Part shown: positions 307 through 48,214 of the stretch, one piece after another
Position numbering within the stretch: position 1 is the first letter of the stretch
Layout of the letters: the number at the start of each line of letters is the position of its first letter
Assembly: GCA_045615545.1 (NCBI GenBank)
Contig: JAZLFA010000040.1
Span: 13,667-77,666, forward strand
Reading direction: 5' to 3'
DNA length: 64,000 nt
Origin: Bacilli bacterium
GTDB lineage: Bacteria; Bacillota_I; Bacilli_A; RFN20; CAG-826
Notes under the pieces: model-generated
What the model was told of the DNA's origin: nothing
Database searches by the model: none
The model's input: the letters and a program-made list of their open reading frames with translations, nothing else
Position numbers and translations under genes: made by a program

Positions 307-2502
307 CTAGAAATTGTAGGGGTCTATATTAACAAATATATTAATTGAACTTTTCTTTATAAATTTATCCACTACTTCTTTTAGAATTGGTTCCGCAATT
401 GAAATGTCTTTGTATTTAATCAAAAGTGTACGGTTAAATGCATTTTTTTCAAATGCTATATAAGGCGAAATTGGTCCAAGAATAATTCCATCATCTTTAA
501 ACTTTTCATTAAGTAGATCAACTACTTTATTAATTTCATCAATTGCCTTTTCTTCGTTTTTGCTCGTTATAGTAATACTTGCTAGATAGCAATATGGTGG
601 ATAATTTTGTTGATGACGCATTTGCATTTCTTTTTTGTAAAACATTTCATAGTCTTGTCTAGCTGCTAAAGTAATTGCGTAATGTTCAGGCATATAAGTT
701 TGTATATAAGCTTTTCCTGGACGATCTTTTCTTCCGCATCTACCTACCGCTTGAGTAATTAATTGAAATGCTCGCTCACTACTACGATAATTTGGCATAT
801 TTAAACCAATATCTGCCAAAACGACACCCACTAAAGTGACAAGAGGAAAATCGTGCCCTTTTGCGATCATTTGAGTACCAATCAAAATATCAGCTTCATG
901 ATTTCTAAAAGCTTCTACAGTTTTAGCGATACGAGTTCTAATCTTAGCAGAATCACTATCAAGCCTTAATGTTCTAGCTTCTGGAAATAAACGATGTATT
1001 TCTTCTTCAACCCTTTCAGAACCAAAACCAGTCTTCATTAGATATTTACTTCCGCATTCAGGGCAAGTGTCAGGCATAAGTTCAACATAATCGCAGTGAT
1101 GACATTTTAGTAAGCCATCAGCTTTATGATAAGTTAAGGCAATGCCACAATTTGGACACTTAAAAACGTGTCCGCAATTTCGACAAGAAACGTTAGTAGA
1201 AAATCCACGTCTATTGAGTAATAAAATAGCTTGTTCTTTTCTATCTAATACGCTTTGAATCTCTTTTCTTAATTGTTTTGAAAAAATATATGAGTCACGA
1301 TCAATATTTGCATAGTTTAACATGTTGATGATATGAGTTTCAGGAAGAGGTTGGTTATTTACTCTTTTTGTTAAAGAAAGAAGGTGGTAAATTCCTTTTT
1401 GTGCTCTTGCCCTAGAATCAAGAGATGGAGTAGCACTTCCAAGTAACACCTTAGCGTCGTGCATGCGTGAGCGCATTAGAGCCACATCTCGGGCATGATA
1501 GAATGGCGCCGTATCTTGCTTATAACTTTCAACATGTTCTTCATCCAAAATAATTAATCCAATATTATCTAATGGCGCAAAAATAGCACTTCTAGCGCCC
1601 ACCACTACAGAACATTCTCCACGAGCAATTTTACGATATTCATCATACTTTTCCGCTGGCGTTAATTCGCTATGTAAAATAGCAACATTTCCCTTAAATC
1701 TTCTAATAAAATATTCCATCATCATCGGAGTTAAAGAAATCTCAGGAACAAGCATTAAAACTTGCTTGCCTTTAGAAAGGACATTTTCACTAATTGATAA
1801 GTACACTTCTGTCTTACCACTTCCAGTCACACCTTCAAGCAAAAATACCTTATCACTTGAAGAAGAAAATTCATCAACGACATTTTGTTGATCAATGGTT
1901 AATTCTTTTGCTTGTTCAGGTTCATAATTAGGAATTTCAAAACGTCGTTTTTCTTCTTTTATGATTTTTACTTTTTTAAGTTCAACCAATTTAGAAAGAA
2001 TACTAACAGACTTTATTTCGCGTTTTAAAATCTTGTCTTCACTCGATAATAATCTTAATAATTCTATTTGTTTGTGGGTTAAGTTTTCTTCGCTTTTATC
2101 AATAACAACAACATATTGATCATAAGCTATCTTAGGAGCTTTTAAACTTGAGTGTCTTATTGATAAAGAAGGAGGAAGCATTGTCTGTAAAACAGAAATC
2201 TTGCTGGCTAAATAATATTCACTCATCTCATCCGCTAGTTCTAATAGATCGGGTTTAAGTAATGGTGTTTCATCAATTACATCAATAATTTCGTTTATAG
2301 AAAAACCAAATTCATCTTCTAATTCTGAAATTGACTTATCACTTTCTTTCACAGATAAAACATAGCCGACCAATTCTTGATTATTGAAATTAATCAGTAC
2401 ACGAAAACCAGAATCAACTTTTTTATTACCATGATAACAATATGTAAATGGTCTATTTAAAGAAAGAGTAGCGTGTTCAATTAACAGTTCAATTAACTTC
2501 AC
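307..2502 (-). CDS. priA: Primosomal protein N' (PriA replication restart helicase)
   Basis: 731 aa. Walker A GVTGSGKTEVY, DEEH box, two CxxC zinc-finger pairs (CRNCGHVFKCPNCG, CHHCDY, CPECG), and helicase C-terminal motifs TQMIAKGHDFP and QAVGRCGR. Confidence 0.9.
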   Translation of the reverse strand: MKLIELLIEHATLSLNRPFTYCYHGNKKVDSGFRVLINFNNQELVGYVLSVKESDKSISELEDEFGFSINEIIDVIDETPLLKPDLLELADEMSEYYLASKISVLQTMLPPSLSIRHSSLKAPKIAYDQYVVVIDKSEENLTHKQIELLRLLSSEDKILKREIKSVSILSKLVELKKVKIIKEEKRRFEIPNYEPEQAKELTIDQQNVVDEFSSSSDKVFLLEGVTGSGKTEVYLSISENVLSKGKQVLMLVPEISLTPMMMEYFIRRFKGNVAILHSELTPAEKYDEYRKIARGECSVVVGARSAIFAPLDNIGLIILDEEHVESYKQDTAPFYHARDVALMRSRMHDAKVLLGSATPSLDSRARAQKGIYHLLSLTKRVNNQPLPETHIINMLNYANIDRDSYIFSKQLRKEIQSVLDRKEQAILLLNRRGFSTNVSCRNCGHVFKCPNCGIALTYHKADGLLKCHHCDYVELMPDTCPECGSKYLMKTGFGSERVEEEIHRLFPEARTLRLDSDSAKIRTRIAKTVEAFRNHEADILIGTQMIAKGHDFPLVTLVGVVLADIGLNMPNYRSSERAFQLITQAVGRCGRKDRPGKAYIQTYMPEHYAITLAARQDYEMFYKKEMQMRHQQNYPPYCYLASITITSKNEEKAIDEINKVVDLLNEKFKDDGIILGPISPYIAFEKNAFNRTLLIKYKDISIAEPILKEVVDKFIKKSSINIFVNIDPYNF

Positions 2503-43519: not shown

Positions 43520-43610
43520 GGAGGAATACCCAAGAGGCTGAAGGGGCGGGCTTGGAAAGCTCGTAGGCATGTAAAAGTGTGCGAGGGTTCAAATCCCTCT
43601 TCCTCCGCCA
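43520..43610 (+). tRNA. tRNA-Ser (anticodon GGA)
   Basis: Class II tRNA with acceptor GGAGGAA/TTCCTCC, anticodon loop TTGGAAA, long variable arm, T-loop GGTTCAAATCC and encoded CCA. Confidence 0.85.
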
Positions 43611-43642
43611 TTTACAAAAAAGTTCGATGAATACGAACTTTT

Positions 43643-44917
43643 TTAATTTTTAAGACTTGTTATTGGCACTACATATACGCCATCGTTTCTTCTATAAGCA
43701 GCGTTAGTTAAACCACAAATGACGCATAGCTGCCTAGCTGGTTTGCCACCTTTTTTTTCAATATTTTTATTTAAAGCAATAAGTTTTAAAGCGGCATCAT
43801 CAATTTGATTGGCGCCTAACTTAATTTCAAATGCACACCAAGAACCATCTTCAAGTTCAATCACAGAATCAATTTCGTTATTTTCGTAATCTTGGTAATG
43901 AAATAACTTTCCTCCAAAAGACTCAGCATAAGTTAATAAATCTCTCTGAACAAGTGATTCAAACATAAATCCTAATAAGTCTAAATTATTCAACAACTTT
44001 TCATGCGATAAATTTAATAAAGCACATGGTAAAGAAGGATCAACAAAATGCCTTTTTTCGCTTTGCTTAACTCGAATAGAAGACCTAATGTTTGAAGAAA
44101 AAGGAGGTATATTTTCTAGTATATATAAATTATTAAACAAATTTAGATAATCAGTAATTGTATCAACATCAATATCATGTGAATCTTTTTCTATAATGTC
44201 TCTTTTCAAAGTTGTATTTGTCACAGTTGTACATTCGTTTCTTGCTAGAGATTTTAGAAGTAACTCAATTTTGTGTTTATCTCTTTTTATATCATCAACT
44301 TTAAAAATATCTTCATTAATTACAGATTTAATGTATTCTTTACTAACTAACATACCTCGTTTAACATCTAATTCTAGTGTTGCGGGCCACCCACCGACGA
44401 CAATACAATCGATAATATCATTTATATCTACTTCATTAAGATAAACATCTTTTGCTTTTCCATAACATATATCAAGCAAAGAAATTTCACCTTTTGATTT
44501 ACCGCTCTCATATAAAGACATTGGCCTCATTTTTAAACGAGCTATTCTGCCGGTTCCAGTATGAATGTATTTATTCTTATTTATTGTCGCAGAACCAGTT
44601 AATATAAATTGCCCTTTTCTTGGATCTGAATCAACCTTCCCTCTAACGGCATCCCAAATTAAAGGTGCTTCTTGCCATTCATCTATTAATCTAGGAAAAT
44701 TACCATCCAGTATAAGGTATGGATTCATTAAAGCTAATTTTTTATTGTTAAAATTTCCTTTTGGATCAGATAACATAACTTCGCTATTAGAATTATTTTT
44801 GCTTGTCCATGTTTTTCCACACCATTTAGGACCTTCAATTAAAATAGAAGAAAATGTTGTAAGATAGAAACTTATCTTTTCATCTATTATTCTTTGCTTG
44901 TAATTTACTAATTTCAT
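43643..44917 (-). CDS. AAA-family ATPase (AAA_14) with C-terminal DUF4143 domain (putative PD-(D/E)xK nuclease fold); paralog 1
   Basis: 424 aa. Walker A GPKWCGKT, Walker B-like LILDGNF.LIDEWQ, and C-terminal EIDSVIELEDGSWCAFEIKLG (D...ExK pattern). Confidence 0.7.
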   Translation of the reverse strand: MKLVNYKQRIIDEKISFYLTTFSSILIEGPKWCGKTWTSKNNSNSEVMLSDPKGNFNNKKLALMNPYLILDGNFPRLIDEWQEAPLIWDAVRGKVDSDPRKGQFILTGSATINKNKYIHTGTGRIARLKMRPMSLYESGKSKGEISLLDICYGKAKDVYLNEVDINDIIDCIVVGGWPATLELDVKRGMLVSKEYIKSVINEDIFKVDDIKRDKHKIELLLKSLARNECTTVTNTTLKRDIIEKDSHDIDVDTITDYLNLFNNLYILENIPPFSSNIRSSIRVKQSEKRHFVDPSLPCALLNLSHEKLLNNLDLLGFMFESLVQRDLLTYAESFGGKLFHYQDYENNEIDSVIELEDGSWCAFEIKLGANQIDDAALKLIALNKNIEKKGGKPARQLCVICGLTNAAYRRNDGVYVVPITSLKN

Positions 44918-44948
44918 TTTGCAAAACCTCTGAAATTATATTATTACA

Positions 44949-45017
44949 TTCCGATAATTTAGTCAAACTTATTCCGAGAGTTTTGATAGTTTTGTTCCGA
45001 GAGATTTAGAATATCTG
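44949..45017. repeat. Three direct copies of a TTCCGA(T/G)AG-containing 23-bp unit
   Basis: TTCCGATAA at 44949, TTCCGAGAG at 44972 and 44995. The exact 23-bp spacing lies 32-100 nt upstream of the paralog-1 start (44917). Confidence 0.4.
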
Positions 45018-45110
45018 TGTAATGGCAATGTACTGGTAACCTAAAAGTAGACACACAAAATTTATTCAGTAGACACACGAATGTTAAAATGGAAACAAGG
45101 AGGATTAAAT

Positions 45111-45449
45111 ATGTGGAGAACATATCAAGAAGAAGTAGACATTGGAAACAAAGTTTTTAATCACGTAATGACAAAAACGGAAGCAATGGAACAATTTGAT
45201 TTAACAAATAACGAGCTTACAACTTGTATTAAAAAATACATGAAAGAAAACAATATTCCAATCATACCTGAAGTGCTTAATGCTATAAGCATTGAGTTTC
45301 CAAATTACTATGATTTAAGTAAAGAGGAATTGATCAAAGAAATCATGAAAAAAGACATTGAGGTTGAACGTGCAAAAAAAGGATACACAGTGAGAGGGGG
45401 TGGAAAGACAAAGGAGTTCATTTCTATAAAAGATGCGAATATCAAATAG
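45111..45449 (+). CDS. IS3-family transposase OrfA (HTH)
   Basis: Start at MWRTYQ with AAGGAGG 7 nt upstream. Small helical DNA-binding protein immediately 5' of orfB. Confidence 0.5.
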   Translation: MWRTYQEEVDIGNKVFNHVMTKTEAMEQFDLTNNELTTCIKKYMKENNIPIIPEVLNAISIEFPNYYDLSKEELIKEIMKKDIEVERAKKGYTVRGGGKTKEFISIKDANIK

Positions 45450-45451
45450 TA

Positions 45452-46051
45452 ATGCAGCTTTCAAATAAATGGCACGTAAGAGATTTATGCGATGCGATGT
45501 CTATATCAAGATCAGGCTTCTATAAATGGAGAAAAAGAATCAACAATCCATGCAAGACTGTTAAAAAACGAATGGATGATATAATTCTCTTTGAGAAATA
45601 TCACAAGAAATATCCAAGCCACGGTTATAGATGGCTTAACGCAAAAATAAGATTAGACCTAGGTTTAGTTATGTCTGATCAATATGCACATAGATGTTGT
45701 AAATTCGCTGGAATAAAATCTCAATCAAAACATTACCAATATAAAGCGCCAGGAGAAAATAGAAGAGTCTTTGAAAACATGGTTATGTCATCCATAAAAA
45801 TGGATGGCCCATTACAAGTTGTGGTCTCAGATATGACAGCCTTCTGGGCAAATAAAACATATTGGGAATTAACTTTATATATGGATTTGTGGAATGATGA
45901 AATCATAGGCTATGGTTTATCAAGCCGAAGAGGTGATAGAAACACTTATTTCGAAGGATTAAAACAAGTTTGTGAAAAAATAAAAGGAATAGAAGGTCTT
46001 GAGTTGATTTTGCACACAGATTGGATAAGTATTGCAACAGGAATTTTTTAA
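45452..46051 (+). pseudogene. IS3-family transposase OrfB, 3'-truncated (no DDE glutamate region)
   Basis: SRSGFYKWRKR, YPSHGYRWLNAKI, VVSDMTAF (first D) and LYMDLWNDEIIGY (second D) match IS150-like OrfB. The ORF stops at 199 aa against about 280 expected. Confidence 0.65.
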
Positions 46052-46340
46052 ATATAAGTATTGCATAGCAAAAAGAGGCTAGATTTAGCCATTTTTTATT
46101 TTTTTGTCATATAATTACTATTGTTGGATTGTAAAAACTTCTCGCTTAGAACATACCGCATATATGATTCTAGCAAGCTTAAAGACCCAATCACCGACTG
46201 GTCTAGAACATAAGGAAGAAACATAGTACATCAGAAAGAAGAAATTCGTTCTCCACTACGGCATTTACATAAATTAAAAAGACTCCAAAATGAGTCTGTT
46301 GATGGCTTCGGCCATCTTTTCTTTTGCTTTTTGAGACCTT

Positions 46341-46398
46341 ACGTGTCCTAACATTTAGTCTTAAAAGTGCTTACGTGCCCTAACATTTAAGGACATTC
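46341..46398. repeat. Two adjacent copies of the 20-26 bp motif ACGTG(T/C)CCTAACATTTA(A/G) (third copy at 48023-48048)
   Basis: 46341-46360 ACGTGTCCTAACATTTAGTC. 46373-46398 ACGTGCCCTAACATTTAAGGACATTC. 48023-48048 ACGTGTCCTAACATTTAAGGACATTC. The motif contains the hairpin GTCCT-aacattta-AGGAC. Confidence 0.55.
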
Positions 46399-46426
46399 AC
46401 AAAAAAGTTCGATAAATCGGACTTTT

Positions 46427-47713
46427 TTAATTTTTTAAACAAGCAAGAGGGACTTCATAAACTCCATCTTCTCTCTTTAAAGCAGCTACTCCTTTAGTTA
46501 TAACCATTAAAAAAGCAGGTTTTCCAGTTTTTTCTTTATCAATATCGTTGGAAATTTTAATTAATTTTTTTGCTGCCTCATCAATATCTTCTTGATCAGT
46601 AAGTTTGACTTCGATTAATGCCCAACTGCCATCTCTAAATTGAATAACAGCATCTGCTTCGCGATCCATTTGATCTTTATAATGATAAACATTTGCTCCA
46701 AAAGTATCACAGTATATTCTTAAATCACGAATTGCTAATGATTCAAACAAAAATCCAAAAGTATTCATATCACTAAATAACCCTTTTGGACCAATCCCAA
46801 GTGAAGCGGCCGCAATAGAAGGATCAACAAAATGTCTAGTATTTTTTGATCTAATTGAAACTTTGCTTCTTAGATTAGGATTCCAAGCCTCCAATTCCTC
46901 TACAACATATAGTCTTTTAAGAGCAAGTAAATACTTCTCAAATGTTTTTACATCAAAAGAATTATCATTAGATGCAACATCATTTACAATGACACTATCT
47001 GCGCACTGAGATCCAATATTTCTTGAATATGAACGCATTATTTTTTTTGCTTTATTTACATCTTTTCTTATTTTAATATCTTTTAGTGAAAATAAATCCT
47101 CATTTACAACAGCATCATAAAAATCTATAACTTGTTGTAATGCAACATCTTTTTCTTGATTAATTGATAATGGCCATCCGCCACGACAAATATAATATGT
47201 GTAGTCTTCAATTGTTTTATTAGATAAACATGGTTCAAATATGCCTTCTTTTAAATTAAGTAACGAAACTTTTCCGTTACTATCTCCGCTTTCAAACAAA
47301 GACATAGGTCTCATCATTTTTCTCACAATTCTTCCTGCACCAGTATGCCTTTCGCCATTATTCTTTGAAATGGTTTTATCGGTAATACTTCCTGTTAATA
47401 TAAATTGTCCAAAAGATCCGCTCTTATCAACTTGGTCTTTTATAGAATTCCAAATAAAAGATATTTCCTGCCATTCGTCTATCATAAGTGGTTTTTCACC
47501 TTGTTGCAAAAAAATAGTTGGCGAAGCTTTTGCCAAATCAATATATTGTTGTTTTGTTTCTTCTATTGTTAAATCGATAATAGTTTTTGCTTGTCTAGCT
47601 GAAGTTGTTGATTTGCCACACCATTTAGGGCCAACCACCAATACAGCTCCTTTTGATTTAAGCGAAAATCTTAACGTTTCATCAAACAATCTTGGTATAT
47701 AATTTTTTTCCAT
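46427..47713 (-). CDS. AAA-family ATPase (AAA_14) with C-terminal DUF4143 domain; paralog 2
   Basis: 428 aa. Walker A GPKWCGKS, MIDEWQ, and C-terminal EADAVIQFRDGSWALIEVKLT. About 40-45% identical to paralog 1 by eye. Confidence 0.7.
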   Translation of the reverse strand: MEKNYIPRLFDETLRFSLKSKGAVLVVGPKWCGKSTTSARQAKTIIDLTIEETKQQYIDLAKASPTIFLQQGEKPLMIDEWQEISFIWNSIKDQVDKSGSFGQFILTGSITDKTISKNNGERHTGAGRIVRKMMRPMSLFESGDSNGKVSLLNLKEGIFEPCLSNKTIEDYTYYICRGGWPLSINQEKDVALQQVIDFYDAVVNEDLFSLKDIKIRKDVNKAKKIMRSYSRNIGSQCADSVIVNDVASNDNSFDVKTFEKYLLALKRLYVVEELEAWNPNLRSKVSIRSKNTRHFVDPSIAAASLGIGPKGLFSDMNTFGFLFESLAIRDLRIYCDTFGANVYHYKDQMDREADAVIQFRDGSWALIEVKLTDQEDIDEAAKKLIKISNDIDKEKTGKPAFLMVITKGVAALKREDGVYEVPLACLKN

Positions 47714-47766
47714 ATTAAATTATCCTCAAAGGTATGATACATCATTAATAAATTAATGTAAATACT

Positions 47767-47832
47767 AAATCCCAAAAATGTAAGTAAATAAATCCCAGAA
47801 ATGTAAGTAAATAAATCCCAAAAATATAAAAT
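47767..47832. repeat. 23-bp tandem direct repeat, 2.8 copies (AAATCCCARAAATGTAAGTAAAT)
   Basis: Units at 47767, 47790 and 47813, the last degenerate. They sit between the HTH mini-gene stop and the paralog-2 start. Confidence 0.65.
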
Positions 47833-47945
47833 TACTTAATATGTTTTATAGCACCATTGATTTTTTTAGATGAACAATAATTACGTGCAGTTCTTTCTGA
47901 GATATTCCATTTTTCTGAATATTTTTTAACTGATATAAATTTCAT
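47832..47945 (-). CDS. 37-aa helix-turn-helix protein (AlpA/excisionase-like HTH_17), absent from the ORF track
   Basis: The minus-strand frame translates to MKFISVKKYSEKWNISERTARNYCSSKKINGAIKHIK. ISERTARNY is a typical phage Xis/AlpA recognition-helix motif. Confidence 0.4.
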   Translation of the reverse strand: MKFISVKKYSEKWNISERTARNYCSSKKINGAIKHIK

Positions 47946-48214
47946 GCTTTGGTAATACCATCAGACGGCAAGAAGTTCAATACTTTAATAAAGTTTTATT
48001 TTTTATGCCGTTTACAATTCATACGTGTCCTAACATTTAAGGACATTCTTGATTGCAAATACACATGAAATGTCGTGTGTATTTTTATTTTGTAATATTA
48101 ATGAAATTTGCTTGCAAATAAATGACTTATTAATATTATTTGTTGCTTTTTATCGCAAAGACTATCAAAAAGAGGCATAATTATATTATGCTAATCAAAA
48201 AGGAAGTTAAATGA

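What the first reader, a model, noticed from the sequence alone, without database searches (positions are those of the whole stretch)
44949..45017. Different 23-bp triple direct repeats upstream of each ATPase paralog (second set at 47767-47832)
Upstream of paralog 1 there are three TTCCGA(T/G)AG-containing units spaced exactly 23 bp apart (44949, 44972, 44995). Upstream of paralog 2 there are 2.8 tandem copies of the 23-bp unit AAATCCCARAAATGTAAGTAAAT (47767-47832). The sequences differ but the period (about two helical turns), the copy number and the position (about 30-120 nt upstream of the start codon) are the same. This is the pattern expected for paralog-specific arrays of protein-binding sites (iteron-like operators), so each paralog may have its own dedicated regulator or auto-regulatory site.
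Basis: seen in the sequence. Interest (0 to 1): 0.5.

Follow-up and report, generated by a model that had tools for sequence, protein, structure and literature searches.

The report
Self-operator repeat arrays of PDC-S01 ATPase-nuclease genes
Each of the two ATPase-nuclease genes is preceded by three 23-bp-spaced repeats built into its promoter; the same arrangement occurs in front of this very common, uncharacterised "candidate phage-defence" gene family across bacteria and an archaeon, and sequence covariation suggests each protein reads its own repeats.

Summary
Both repeat sets are real. They are the two strongest 23-bp periodicities in the 64-kb window. They are not part of the neighbouring IS: two near-identical loci without the IS keep the array, with 3 and 2 units.

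The genes are AAA_14 / winged-helix / DUF4143 (PD-(D/E)xK) proteins, which PADLOC calls PDC-S01. In 82 related loci from many phyla and one archaeon, 77 have 23 bp as the best upstream period. They carry 2-6 head-to-tail units with the frame AAATnTnnCnGAATG, found only upstream and only in one orientation. The two window sets fit this frame, so they are diverged homologues.

In the paralog-1 clade, the promoter-proximal unit fills the 17-nt spacer between the predicted -35 and -10.

The variable core bases covary best with residues 250-252 of the protein, at the start of the predicted recognition helix. Residue 252 never differs between close relatives with the same core. It differs in 75% of close pairs with a different core.

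Best reading: paralog-specific autoregulatory operator arrays bound by the gene's own product. This is inferred, since no binding was tested. I found no description of it in the searchable literature. IS21 transposon ends use the same 23-bp phasing, which I take as an analogy.

The parts
44939..45007 (-). Array 1: three head-to-tail 23-bp units (45007-44985, 44984-44962, 44961-44939). On the gene strand they read AAATCTCTCGGAAC.., AAAACTCTCGGAAT.. and TAAATTATCGGAAT..
   Evidence: Same array in L232 (3 units) and L001 (2 units) without the IS. 72%-identical orthologues keep 3-4 units.
44938..44966 (-). Predicted sigma-70 promoter of paralog 1: -35 TTGACT (44966-44961), 17-nt spacer, -10 TAATAT (44943-44938). 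The spacer is the proximal repeat unit.
   Evidence: Family-wide profile aligned on the proximal unit: TTGnnA directly 5' of the unit and TAnAAT at +18..+23. Prediction only; no TSS data.
43643..44917 (-). Paralog 1, 424 aa: AAA+ (AAA_14), winged helix, PD-(D/E)xK (DUF4143). PADLOC family PDC-S01.
44129..44170 (-). Codons 250-263 of paralog 1: predicted recognition helix of the winged helix. Residues D250-V251-D252 covary with the repeat core.
   Evidence: AF2 model, helix 251-263. Covariation.
47759..47827 (-). Array 2: three 23-bp units whose 16-nt cores lie at 47827-47812, 47804-47789 and 47781-47766 (ATATTTTTGGGATTTA, ACATTTCTGGGATTTA, ACATTTTTGGGATTTA).
   Evidence: Orthologues L006, L007, L009 and L224 keep 2.5-4 units.
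47734..47762 (-). Predicted promoter of paralog 2: -35 TTTACA (47762-47757), 17-nt spacer, -10 TATCAT (47739-47734). The three full units lie directly upstream of the -35. Only a degenerate partial unit lies in the spacer.
   Evidence: (best promoter-like match in the region, 10 of 12).
46427..47713 (-). Paralog 2, 428 aa, same architecture, 38% identical to paralog 1. The recognition-helix start is D-V-K where paralog 1 has D-V-D.
45029..46051 (+). Truncated IS3-family element. Its left end TGTACTGGTAACC.. starts at 45029, 22 bp beyond array 1, and it is not part of the feature.
   Evidence: Breakpoint defined by alignment with L001 and L232.
47832..47945 (-). 37-aa ORF with a weak partial HTH_17 match. 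It ends at the distal edge of array 2, is probably a gene fragment, and is not conserved with the module.
   Evidence: (E = 0.0067, profile positions 3-31 of 51).
43616..43644 (+). Terminator-like hairpin between tRNA-Ser(GGA) (43520-43610) and the paralog 1 stop codon. A near-copy follows paralog 2 at 46401-46428.
   Evidence: (D6)

Best explanation
Each array is a set of head-to-tail operator sites for the winged-helix domain of the protein encoded immediately downstream. Array, promoter and gene together form a self-contained, self-regulating module.

Proposed mechanism: monomers, or protomers of an AAA+ oligomer, occupy successive units 23 bp apart. In the paralog-1 type, the promoter-proximal unit is the 17-nt spacer between -35 and -10, so occupancy should exclude RNA polymerase. 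That would be negative autoregulation, sharpened by cooperative binding to the upstream units.

The core bases differ between clades and between the two paralogs here (TCGGAA versus TGGGAT), together with the first residues of the recognition helix. Co-resident paralogs would therefore not cross-regulate.

Shown: the repeats, their phasing, their conservation, their placement relative to promoter-like hexamers, the predicted three-domain fold, and the covariation.

Inferred: binding by the gene product, the direction of regulation, and cooperativity.
For: (1) In 82 relatives (47-99% identical) from Bacilli, Clostridia, Bacteroidota, Fibrobacterota, Spirochaetota, Actinomycetota, Gammaproteobacteria and a Methanomethylophilus archaeon, the best upstream period among 10-40 nt is exactly 23 in 77. 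In control regions downstream of the same genes it is 23 in 6 of 79.

(2) Loci carry 2-6 units. Spacings are 23 bp in 171 cases, 22 bp in 2 and 46 bp in 2. The frame is AAATnTnnCnGAATG.

(3) Units occur only upstream and in one orientation. None were found downstream or inverted within about 1.5 kb.

(4) DNA similarity between orthologous modules in different contexts stops at the distal edge of the array and at the stop codon. The upstream neighbours are unrelated genes.

(5) Aligned on the proximal unit, TTGnnA lies directly 5' of it and TAnAAT lies at +18..+23. For paralog 1 this gives TTGACT, then the 17-nt unit, then TAATAT.

(7) Of 424 protein columns, the two with the highest corrected mutual information with motif positions are residues 252 and 251. 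Residue 250 is also in the top ten.

(8) Among close protein pairs, residue 252 differs in 0 of 46 pairs with the same core and in 75% of 981 pairs with a different core. That difference is 0.75; the next column reaches 0.42. Residues 256 and 259, on the same helix face, are also in the top seven.

(9) Examples of the code: N252 pairs with T at motif position 9 in 12 of 14 loci, and E252 pairs with T at position 12 in 13 of 15.

(10) Distant relatives (23-39% identical) on Collinsella, Sulfitobacter, Agrobacterium, Novosphingobium and Brucella plasmids also have 3-4 upstream repeats with a 22-23 bp period.

(11) Near-identical strains differ by exactly one unit: 3 units in the window and in L232, 2 in L001.
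Against: No binding or expression data exist.

The covariation is correlative and partly confounded by phylogeny. The code is not one-to-one: L013 and paralog 1 share D-V-D but have CACCGAAT and CTCGGAAC respectively.

In the paralog-2 clade all full units lie upstream of the -35 and none lies in the spacer. Repression by occlusion is therefore less obvious there, and activation is possible.

The promoters are consensus matches only; 27 such matches were found in the region against 26 expected by chance.

Five of the 82 loci, and the Thermus and Runella relatives, show no clear array.

I could not check the AF2 coordinates for solvent exposure of residues 250-259.

Arrays with 23-bp phasing and the same CTCGGAAT core also occur as IS21 transposon ends. 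The architecture alone therefore does not identify the function.
Confidence: 0.65

Rival explanations
1. The arrays are operators for a separate regulator, either the small HTH encoded upstream or a host factor, and not for the ATPase itself.
For: A 37-aa HTH-like ORF abuts array 2. Small HTH genes lie just upstream in the Collinsella and Sinorhizobium plasmid loci and about 1 kb away in L002 and L006.
Against: The 37-aa ORF matches only part of HTH_17. It is absent from other paralog-2-type loci. Upstream neighbours across 73 loci are unrelated genes. The module moves across phyla with its array. A host factor would not explain why the motif core tracks residues 250-252 of the ATPase.
Confidence: 0.1
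2. The array is a transposon-end-like or recombination site, and the AAA+/winged-helix/nuclease protein mobilises its own module. The logic would resemble IS21 or Tn7 ends: phased binding sites, an AAA+ ATPase and a TnsA-like nuclease.
For: IS21 terminal repeats are 23 bp apart (PMC10122671). Metagenomic IS21 left ends share the CTCGGAAT core and the phase. The conserved module ends exactly at the distal edge of the array. The genes sit in variable hotspots, and the two cassette types swap in one tRNA-Ser slot. 11 of 87 loci have flanking direct repeats of 17-35 bp. The family is transferred across phyla.
Against: Only one 'end' exists: no inverted or direct copy lies after the gene. The flanking direct repeats lie 130-580 bp beyond the array, not at it. 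No DDE, tyrosine or serine recombinase is present. IstA and these proteins share no sequence similarity. The units are locked to the promoter hexamers. Cassette exchange can be explained by recombination in shared flanks.
Confidence: 0.07
3. The arrays are sites for positive control: the protein, or RNA polymerase alpha subunits, use the upstream units to activate transcription.
For: In the paralog-2 clade the three or four full units end just upstream of the -35, with none in the spacer. The units are A/T-rich.
Against: In most loci a unit occupies the -35/-10 spacer, which is a repressor position. The G/C-containing core is the conserved and covarying part, which UP elements would not require.
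Confidence: 0.1
4. The arrays are plasmid-type iterons of a replication origin, and the ATPase is an initiator.
Against: The loci are chromosomal and sit between housekeeping genes. There is no Rep family hit. The protein has a C-terminal nuclease domain. The units overlap the promoter. I saw no AT-rich unwinding element or DnaA boxes, though I did not search for them systematically.
Confidence: 0.02
5. The repeats are neutral slippage products or chance, with no binding function.
For: Unit number changes by slippage between strains.
Against: The core and phase are conserved across phyla while the spacers diverge, and the 23-bp period is found in 77 of 82 loci against 6 of 79 controls.
Confidence: 0.02

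Closest known systems
Iteron arrays of theta-replicating plasmids (pSC101, F, R6K, RK2, pPS10; from my own knowledge)
   Same: Three to seven head-to-tail repeats at about 22 bp phasing, directly upstream of the gene whose winged-helix product binds them. Replicon-specific sequences avoid cross-talk.
   Different: No Rep-family domain. The loci are chromosomal. The units sit inside the promoter, whereas iteron plasmids usually autorepress through a separate inverted repeat. The protein also carries an AAA+ ATPase and a PD-(D/E)xK nuclease.
IS21-family terminal inverted repeats bound by IstA (PMC10122671)
   Same: Multiple direct repeats spaced exactly 23 bp apart. Some metagenomic IS21 left ends share the core (T)CTCGGAATG with the paralog-1 clade. 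An AAA+ ATPase belongs to the system.
   Different: IS21 has two inverted ends with TG..CA termini, a DDE transposase and a separate IstB. Here there is one array, in the opposite orientation relative to the gene, with no transposase and no IstA similarity.
Promoter-embedded autorepressor operators, such as C-protein boxes of restriction-modification systems and Fur- or LexA-type boxes between -35 and -10 (from my own knowledge)
   Same: A site in the -35/-10 spacer. The regulator is encoded downstream, and expression of a potentially toxic nuclease is kept low.
   Different: Those operators are usually palindromes bound by dimers. These are 2-6 direct repeats at a fixed 23-bp phase, and the regulator domain is fused to the ATPase-nuclease.
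PDC-S01, a PADLOC phage-defence candidate (AAA_14 + DUF4143; PMC12988326, PMC13356809)
   Same: Both paralogs match the PDC-S01 models over their full length.
   Different: The papers I read (PMC12988326, PMC13356809 and PMC12881386, read by searching for the term PDC-S01) treat it as a bare single gene of unknown mechanism. None of the passages mentions upstream repeats, a winged helix or autoregulation.

Membership tests
PDC-S01 (AAA_14 / DUF4143 ATPase-nuclease) | Full-length match to the PADLOC PDC-S01 models and to Pfam AAA_14 + DUF4143 | tested here: met
   PDLC04790: E = 1.5e-59 (paralog 1) and 4.3e-55 (paralog 2). PF13173 and PF13635 score above their cut-offs in both.
PDC-S01 (AAA_14 / DUF4143 ATPase-nuclease) | PD-(D/E)xK catalytic motif and fold in the C-terminal domain | tested here: met
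PDC-S01 (AAA_14 / DUF4143 ATPase-nuclease) | Confers phage resistance | not testable with these tools
   Candidate only. One representative gave no protection against T4, T5 or T7 in E. coli B (PMC12881386).
Autoregulatory operator array | Repeated sites conserved with the gene and overlapping its promoter | tested here: met
   (promoter by consensus only)
Autoregulatory operator array | The sites are bound by the product of the downstream gene | tested here: inconclusive
   Supported by covariation of the core with recognition-helix residues 250-252, 256 and 259.
Plasmid iteron origin | Direct repeats of about 17-22 bp at about 22 bp phasing | tested here: met
Plasmid iteron origin | Adjacent Rep-family initiator gene, on an autonomous replicon | tested here: not met
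   No Rep family in Pfam or NCBIfam. The loci are chromosomal, between tRNA-Ser/RluD-like and DegV genes and in many other contexts.
IS21-family transposon end | Multiple terminal direct repeats 23 bp apart | tested here: met
   The IS21 spacing is from PMC10122671.
IS21-family transposon end | A second, inverted end and the istA/istB genes | tested here: not met
   No inverted or downstream units. No IS21 transposase in the window region. IstA versus PDC-S01 gives E > 0.3.
Subterminal repeats of the adjacent IS3-family element | The repeats belong to the IS and are absent where the IS is absent | tested here: not met
   L001 and L232 lack the IS yet keep the array. The IS left end starts at 45029.

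The most novel reading that the evidence does not exclude
PDC-S01 proteins are programmable nucleases that recognise arrays: an oligomer of AAA+/winged-helix/nuclease protomers measures 22-23-bp-phased repeats. The copy in their own promoter would be the 'self', autoregulatory instance of a target architecture typical of mobile DNA, such as IS21, Mu and Tn7 ends or plasmid iterons. The family would then police, or itself behave as, mobile elements rather than sensing phage in the usual way.
Probability: 0.07. Interest if true: 0.9.

Novelty: new variant of a known kind. Interest (0 to 1): 0.64.

Why it matters
PDC-S01 is reported as the fourth most common candidate defence system in prokaryotes, with about 40,000 loci in one survey (PMC12988326). 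[quoted passage not shown] Its function and mechanism are unknown, and its one reported phage test was negative (PMC12881386).

Three things here turn an anonymous "ATP-binding protein" into a testable system:
- a conserved promoter-embedded 23-bp operator array;
- a predicted sequence-specific winged helix between the ATPase and the nuclease;
- a simple residue-to-base code at the start of the recognition helix.

This gives cheap experiments: EMSA, reporter assays and helix swaps. It offers an explanation for how several paralogs could coexist without cross-talk. It also provides a DNA signature for finding and classifying family members. Heterologous tests that omit the native upstream region, or that overexpress the gene, may misreport its activity.

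Tried and rejected
- **IS-end hypothesis.** Rejected: IS-free near-identical loci keep the array.
- **Second element end.** A per-locus matrix scan for units downstream of the gene or inverted found none.
- **Inverted near-copy of the unit inside the paralog 1 coding region** (43937-43953). Other loci have no counterpart, so it is probably chance within the conserved LVxRDL codons.
- **Conserved neighbouring regulator.** None found; upstream genes are heterogeneous.
- **Structured RNA.** Rfam finds only tRNAs in the window.
- **Exclusivity of the array.** The pattern CTCGGAA-N16-CTCGGAA-N16-CTCGGAA in metagenomes gave a PDC-S01 gene 20-100 nt downstream in 30 of 102 testable hits. The rest are IS21 left ends, REP-like repeats and satellites. 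The short pattern is therefore not specific to this family.
- **The same kind of pattern for set 2** in viral contigs: no hits.
- **IstA versus PDC-S01 protein similarity.** None.
- **Solved homologue by sequence.** None in the PDB.
- **Literature.** 'DUF4143', 'COG1373' and 'PDC-S01' returned no description of the repeats. A search for 'AAA_14' matched only unrelated strings.
- **Sliding-window correlation of motif distance with protein distance.** It peaks at residues 201-240, not at the recognition helix. The per-column tests are sharper.

Full report
**1. What is in the window**

Both ATPase genes are on the minus strand: paralog 1 at 43643-44917 and paralog 2 at 46427-47713. They are 38% identical. 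Each has AAA_14 plus DUF4143, and each matches the PADLOC candidate defence family PDC-S01 over its full length.

The repeats lie upstream of the start codons.
- Set 1: TTCCGA occurs at 44949, 44972 and 44995. The hexamer occurs only 10 times in the whole window.
- Set 2: TRF reports a period of 23 and 3.3 copies at 47755-47829.
- In a window-wide scan for 23-bp periodicity, these two places rank first and second.
- One detail in the finding is wrong: the first unit of set 1 is TTCCGATAA, not TTCCGATAG.

**2. Set 1 is not the IS end**

An IS3-family remnant lies next to set 1. Its left end, TGTACTGGTAACC, begins at 45029.
- L232 is 98% identical in DNA and has the same three units with no IS.
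- L001 is 97.7% identical, also has no IS, and lacks exactly one 23-bp unit.

The repeats therefore belong to the ATPase gene, and unit number varies between strains.

**3. Orthologues elsewhere**

- A 72%-identical orthologue in a different context (L002) has four CTCGGAA cores at 23-bp spacing with different spacers.
- Paralog-2 orthologues at 83-87% identity (L006, L007, L009) have 3-4 units of TACATTTTTGGGATTTA.

A scan of one genome per species returned 80 relatives, 47-72% identical to paralog 1. They come from Bacilli, Clostridia, Bacteroidota, Fibrobacterota, Spirochaetota, Actinomycetota, Kiritimatiellia, a gammaproteobacterium and a Methanomethylophilus archaeon.
- In the 260 nt upstream, the best period among 10-40 nt is exactly 23 in 77 of 82 loci.
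- In the 263 nt downstream of the same genes, best periods are scattered: 23 is best in 6 of 79.
- Loci carry 2-6 strong units. Spacings are 23 bp in 171 cases, 22 bp in 2 and 46 bp in 2.

More distant relatives on plasmids (23-39% identical) also have repeats. Collinsella and Sulfitobacter have 23-bp arrays. Agrobacterium, Novosphingobium and Brucella have 22-bp arrays. Thermus and Runella show none.

**4. One frame, variable core**

When the units are phased against each other, the family consensus is AAATnTnnCnGAATGAAAtt. AAAT, C8, G10, A11 and T13 are conserved, while positions 4-9, 12 and 14 differ between clades.

The two window sets fit this frame and share 10 of 16 positions. They are diverged versions of one element, not unrelated sequences.

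Units are found only upstream and in one orientation. None occur after the gene or inverted within about 1.5 kb. DNA similarity between orthologous modules in different contexts stops at the distal edge of the array and at the stop codon. The upstream neighbours are unrelated genes. The conserved unit is therefore array plus promoter plus gene.

**5. Relation to the promoter**

For paralog 1, the consensus scan gives TTGACT (44966-44961), a 17-nt spacer and TAATAT (44943-44938). The spacer is the proximal unit, AAATTATCGGAATGTAA.

Aligning 72 loci on their promoter-proximal strong unit gives the profile AATT..AAAAT.T..C.GAATG...TA.AAT. A TTGnnA hexamer lies directly 5' of the unit, and TAnAAT lies at +18 to +23. 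Many loci read, for example, TTGTAA-AATCTCTCGGATTGGCG-TATAAT. The 23-bp period equals one hexamer plus a 17-nt spacer.

This is a position from which a bound protein would be expected to exclude RNA polymerase. These are consensus matches only, and promoter-like matches are no more frequent in the region than chance (27 against 26).

In the paralog-2 clade the full units end a few bases upstream of the -35 (TTTACA, 17 nt, TATCAT at 47762-47734). The spacer holds at most a degenerate unit. The sign of regulation there is open.

**6. Which protein reads the units**

The AlphaFold2 model of paralog 1 (pLDDT 85, pTM 0.84) shows three parts:
- an AAA+ domain;
- a winged helix, with helices 214-226, 234-244 and 251-263 and a two-strand wing;
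- a PD-(D/E)xK domain.

Covariation was measured across 70 loci.
- The two protein columns with the highest corrected mutual information with motif positions are residue 252 (with motif position 9) and residue 251 (with position 7). Residue 250 is in the top ten. All three lie at the start of the predicted recognition helix.
- Among protein pairs at least 55% identical, residue 252 differs in 0 of 46 pairs with the same core and in 75% of 981 pairs whose core differs at two or more positions. No other column comes close: 0.75 against 0.42.
- Residues 256 and 259, one and two helical turns further on, are also in the top seven.

The residue-to-base code:

| Residues 250-252 | Repeat core |
|---|---|
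| D-x-N | ACTGAAT |
| D-[NSTDE]-D | ACCGAAT |
| x-[VIL]-E | TCGG[AG]TT |
| [NSD]-[IV]-D (paralog 1 is D-V-D) | TCGGAA |
| D-[VLT]-K (paralog 2 is D-V-K) | TTGGGATT |
| S-K-N | GGGTCA |

The code has exceptions. L013 has D-V-D with CACCGAAT.

A host factor or a neighbouring regulator would not explain it. It is absent from other paralog-2-type loci.

**7. Best explanation**

The arrays are paralog-specific autoregulatory operators bound by the winged helix of the downstream AAA+/nuclease protein. This is probably repression in the paralog-1 type.

Shown: the repeats, phase, conservation, promoter placement, fold and covariation. Inferred: binding, the sign of regulation and cooperativity. My confidence is about 0.65.

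**8. What it resembles**

- Plasmid iterons share the phasing, the copy number and the position next to a gene for a winged-helix protein. There is no Rep domain here, and the loci are chromosomal.
- IS21 ends are a closer formal match than I expected. Searching metagenomes for three CTCGGAA cores 23 bp apart gave 102 testable hits. A PDC-S01 gene starts 20-100 nt downstream in 30 of them.
- Many of the other hits are arrays ending in CCGGAATCCGCA next to a gene reading the other way. In L173 that gene is an IS21-family transposase (NF033546, 261 bits).
- IS21 terminal repeats are known to be 23 bp apart (PMC10122671).
- IstA and these proteins share no sequence similarity. The array here has no second, inverted partner and has the opposite orientation relative to its gene. 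I treat the resemblance as analogy or coincidence, and I keep a mobile-element reading as a low-probability rival.

**9. Literature**

- DUF4143 is listed as a PD-(D/E)XK family of unknown function (PMC3424549).
- PDC-S01 is described as the fourth most common defence candidate in prokaryotes, abundant in archaea and not validated (PMC12988326). [quoted passage not shown]
- One representative gave no protection against T4, T5 or T7 in E. coli (PMC12881386).
- None of the passages I read mentions upstream repeats or autoregulation. The searchable library is incomplete, so earlier work may exist.

**10. Local genome context**

The slot next to tRNA-Ser(GGA) and the pseudouridine synthase gene is polymorphic.
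- In L224 and L225 a paralog-2-type module sits there, with a left flank (CAATTGCCATTACACAGATA) that is shared with paralog-1 loci.
- In the window both modules are present in tandem. Each is followed by a near-identical terminator segment (43609-43646 and 46394-46430, 89% identical).
- The paralog-2 module is bracketed by a 26-bp direct repeat (46373-46398 and 48023-48048).
- Ten other loci also have flanking exact repeats of 17-35 bp.

How the cassettes move is unexplained.

**11. Verdict**

The feature is general to a very large, uncharacterised family and appears undescribed. I rate it a new variant of a known kind (direct-repeat autoregulatory operators), with interest 0.64.

Noticed in passing
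window 46373-46398 and 48023-48048 (partial third copy at 46329-46366): A 26-bp direct repeat, ACGTGYCCTAACATTTAAGGACATTC, which contains a hairpin, brackets the whole paralog-2 module together with the 37-aa ORF. An X-like sequence also follows paralog 1 in L232. It looks like a slot boundary or an attachment-type duplication.
   Followed up: partly
L009, L023, L025, L026, L040, L044, L047, L062, L072, L090 (positions): Exact direct repeats of 17-35 bp flank the PDC-S01 module. One copy lies 250-580 bp upstream of the start codon and one lies 20-350 bp after the stop. In several loci similarity continues 3' of both copies, as if the 3' end of a neighbouring gene had been duplicated. The module contains no recombinase.
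   Followed up: partly
window 43520-43646 and 46394-46430; L224 1940-2100: The slot beside tRNA-Ser(GGA) and the RluD-like gene holds a paralog-1-type or a paralog-2-type cassette in different strains. In the window, the terminator flank is duplicated after both genes (89% identical, although the genes are only 38% identical).
   Followed up: partly
L173 1978-2030 with ORF 352-1899(-); also L099, L105, L111, L127, L151, L159, L160, L162, L178, L189, L198, L208: High-GC metagenome contigs carry IS21-family left ends made of 4-6 units, ..ATCAYCTCGGAATG.., exactly 23 bp apart and ending in CCGGAATCCGCA. These have the same core and phase as the paralog-1-type arrays.
   Followed up: yes
window 43937-43953: A 17-nt inverted near-copy (1 mismatch) of the array-1 unit lies inside the paralog 1 coding region, at codons 322-327 (LVQRDL). 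It is not seen in other loci and is probably chance.
   Followed up: yes
window 45029-46051: A truncated IS3-family element: orfA of 122 aa and orfB cut to 199 aa. It is followed by about 350 bp of unassigned sequence, including a tRNA-3'-end-like stretch near 46256-46273 (CTACGGCATTTACATAAA, compared with CTCCGCCATTTACAAAAA after tRNA-Ser).
   Followed up: no
L121, L142, L203 (arrays CCAAACTCGGAAGTRAAA, three units): Low-GC contigs carry a 23-bp-phased CTCGGAAG array upstream of an ORF that is not a PDC-S01 homologue and has no Pfam hit for its first 70 residues. Another gene family may use similar arrays.
   Followed up: no
L013 and L041, upstream ORFs: Some loci have what looks, from the first residues only, like a second AAA_14-like gene directly upstream. 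Tandem paralogs as in this window may therefore be common. Whether co-resident paralogs always differ in repeat core was not tested.
   Followed up: no
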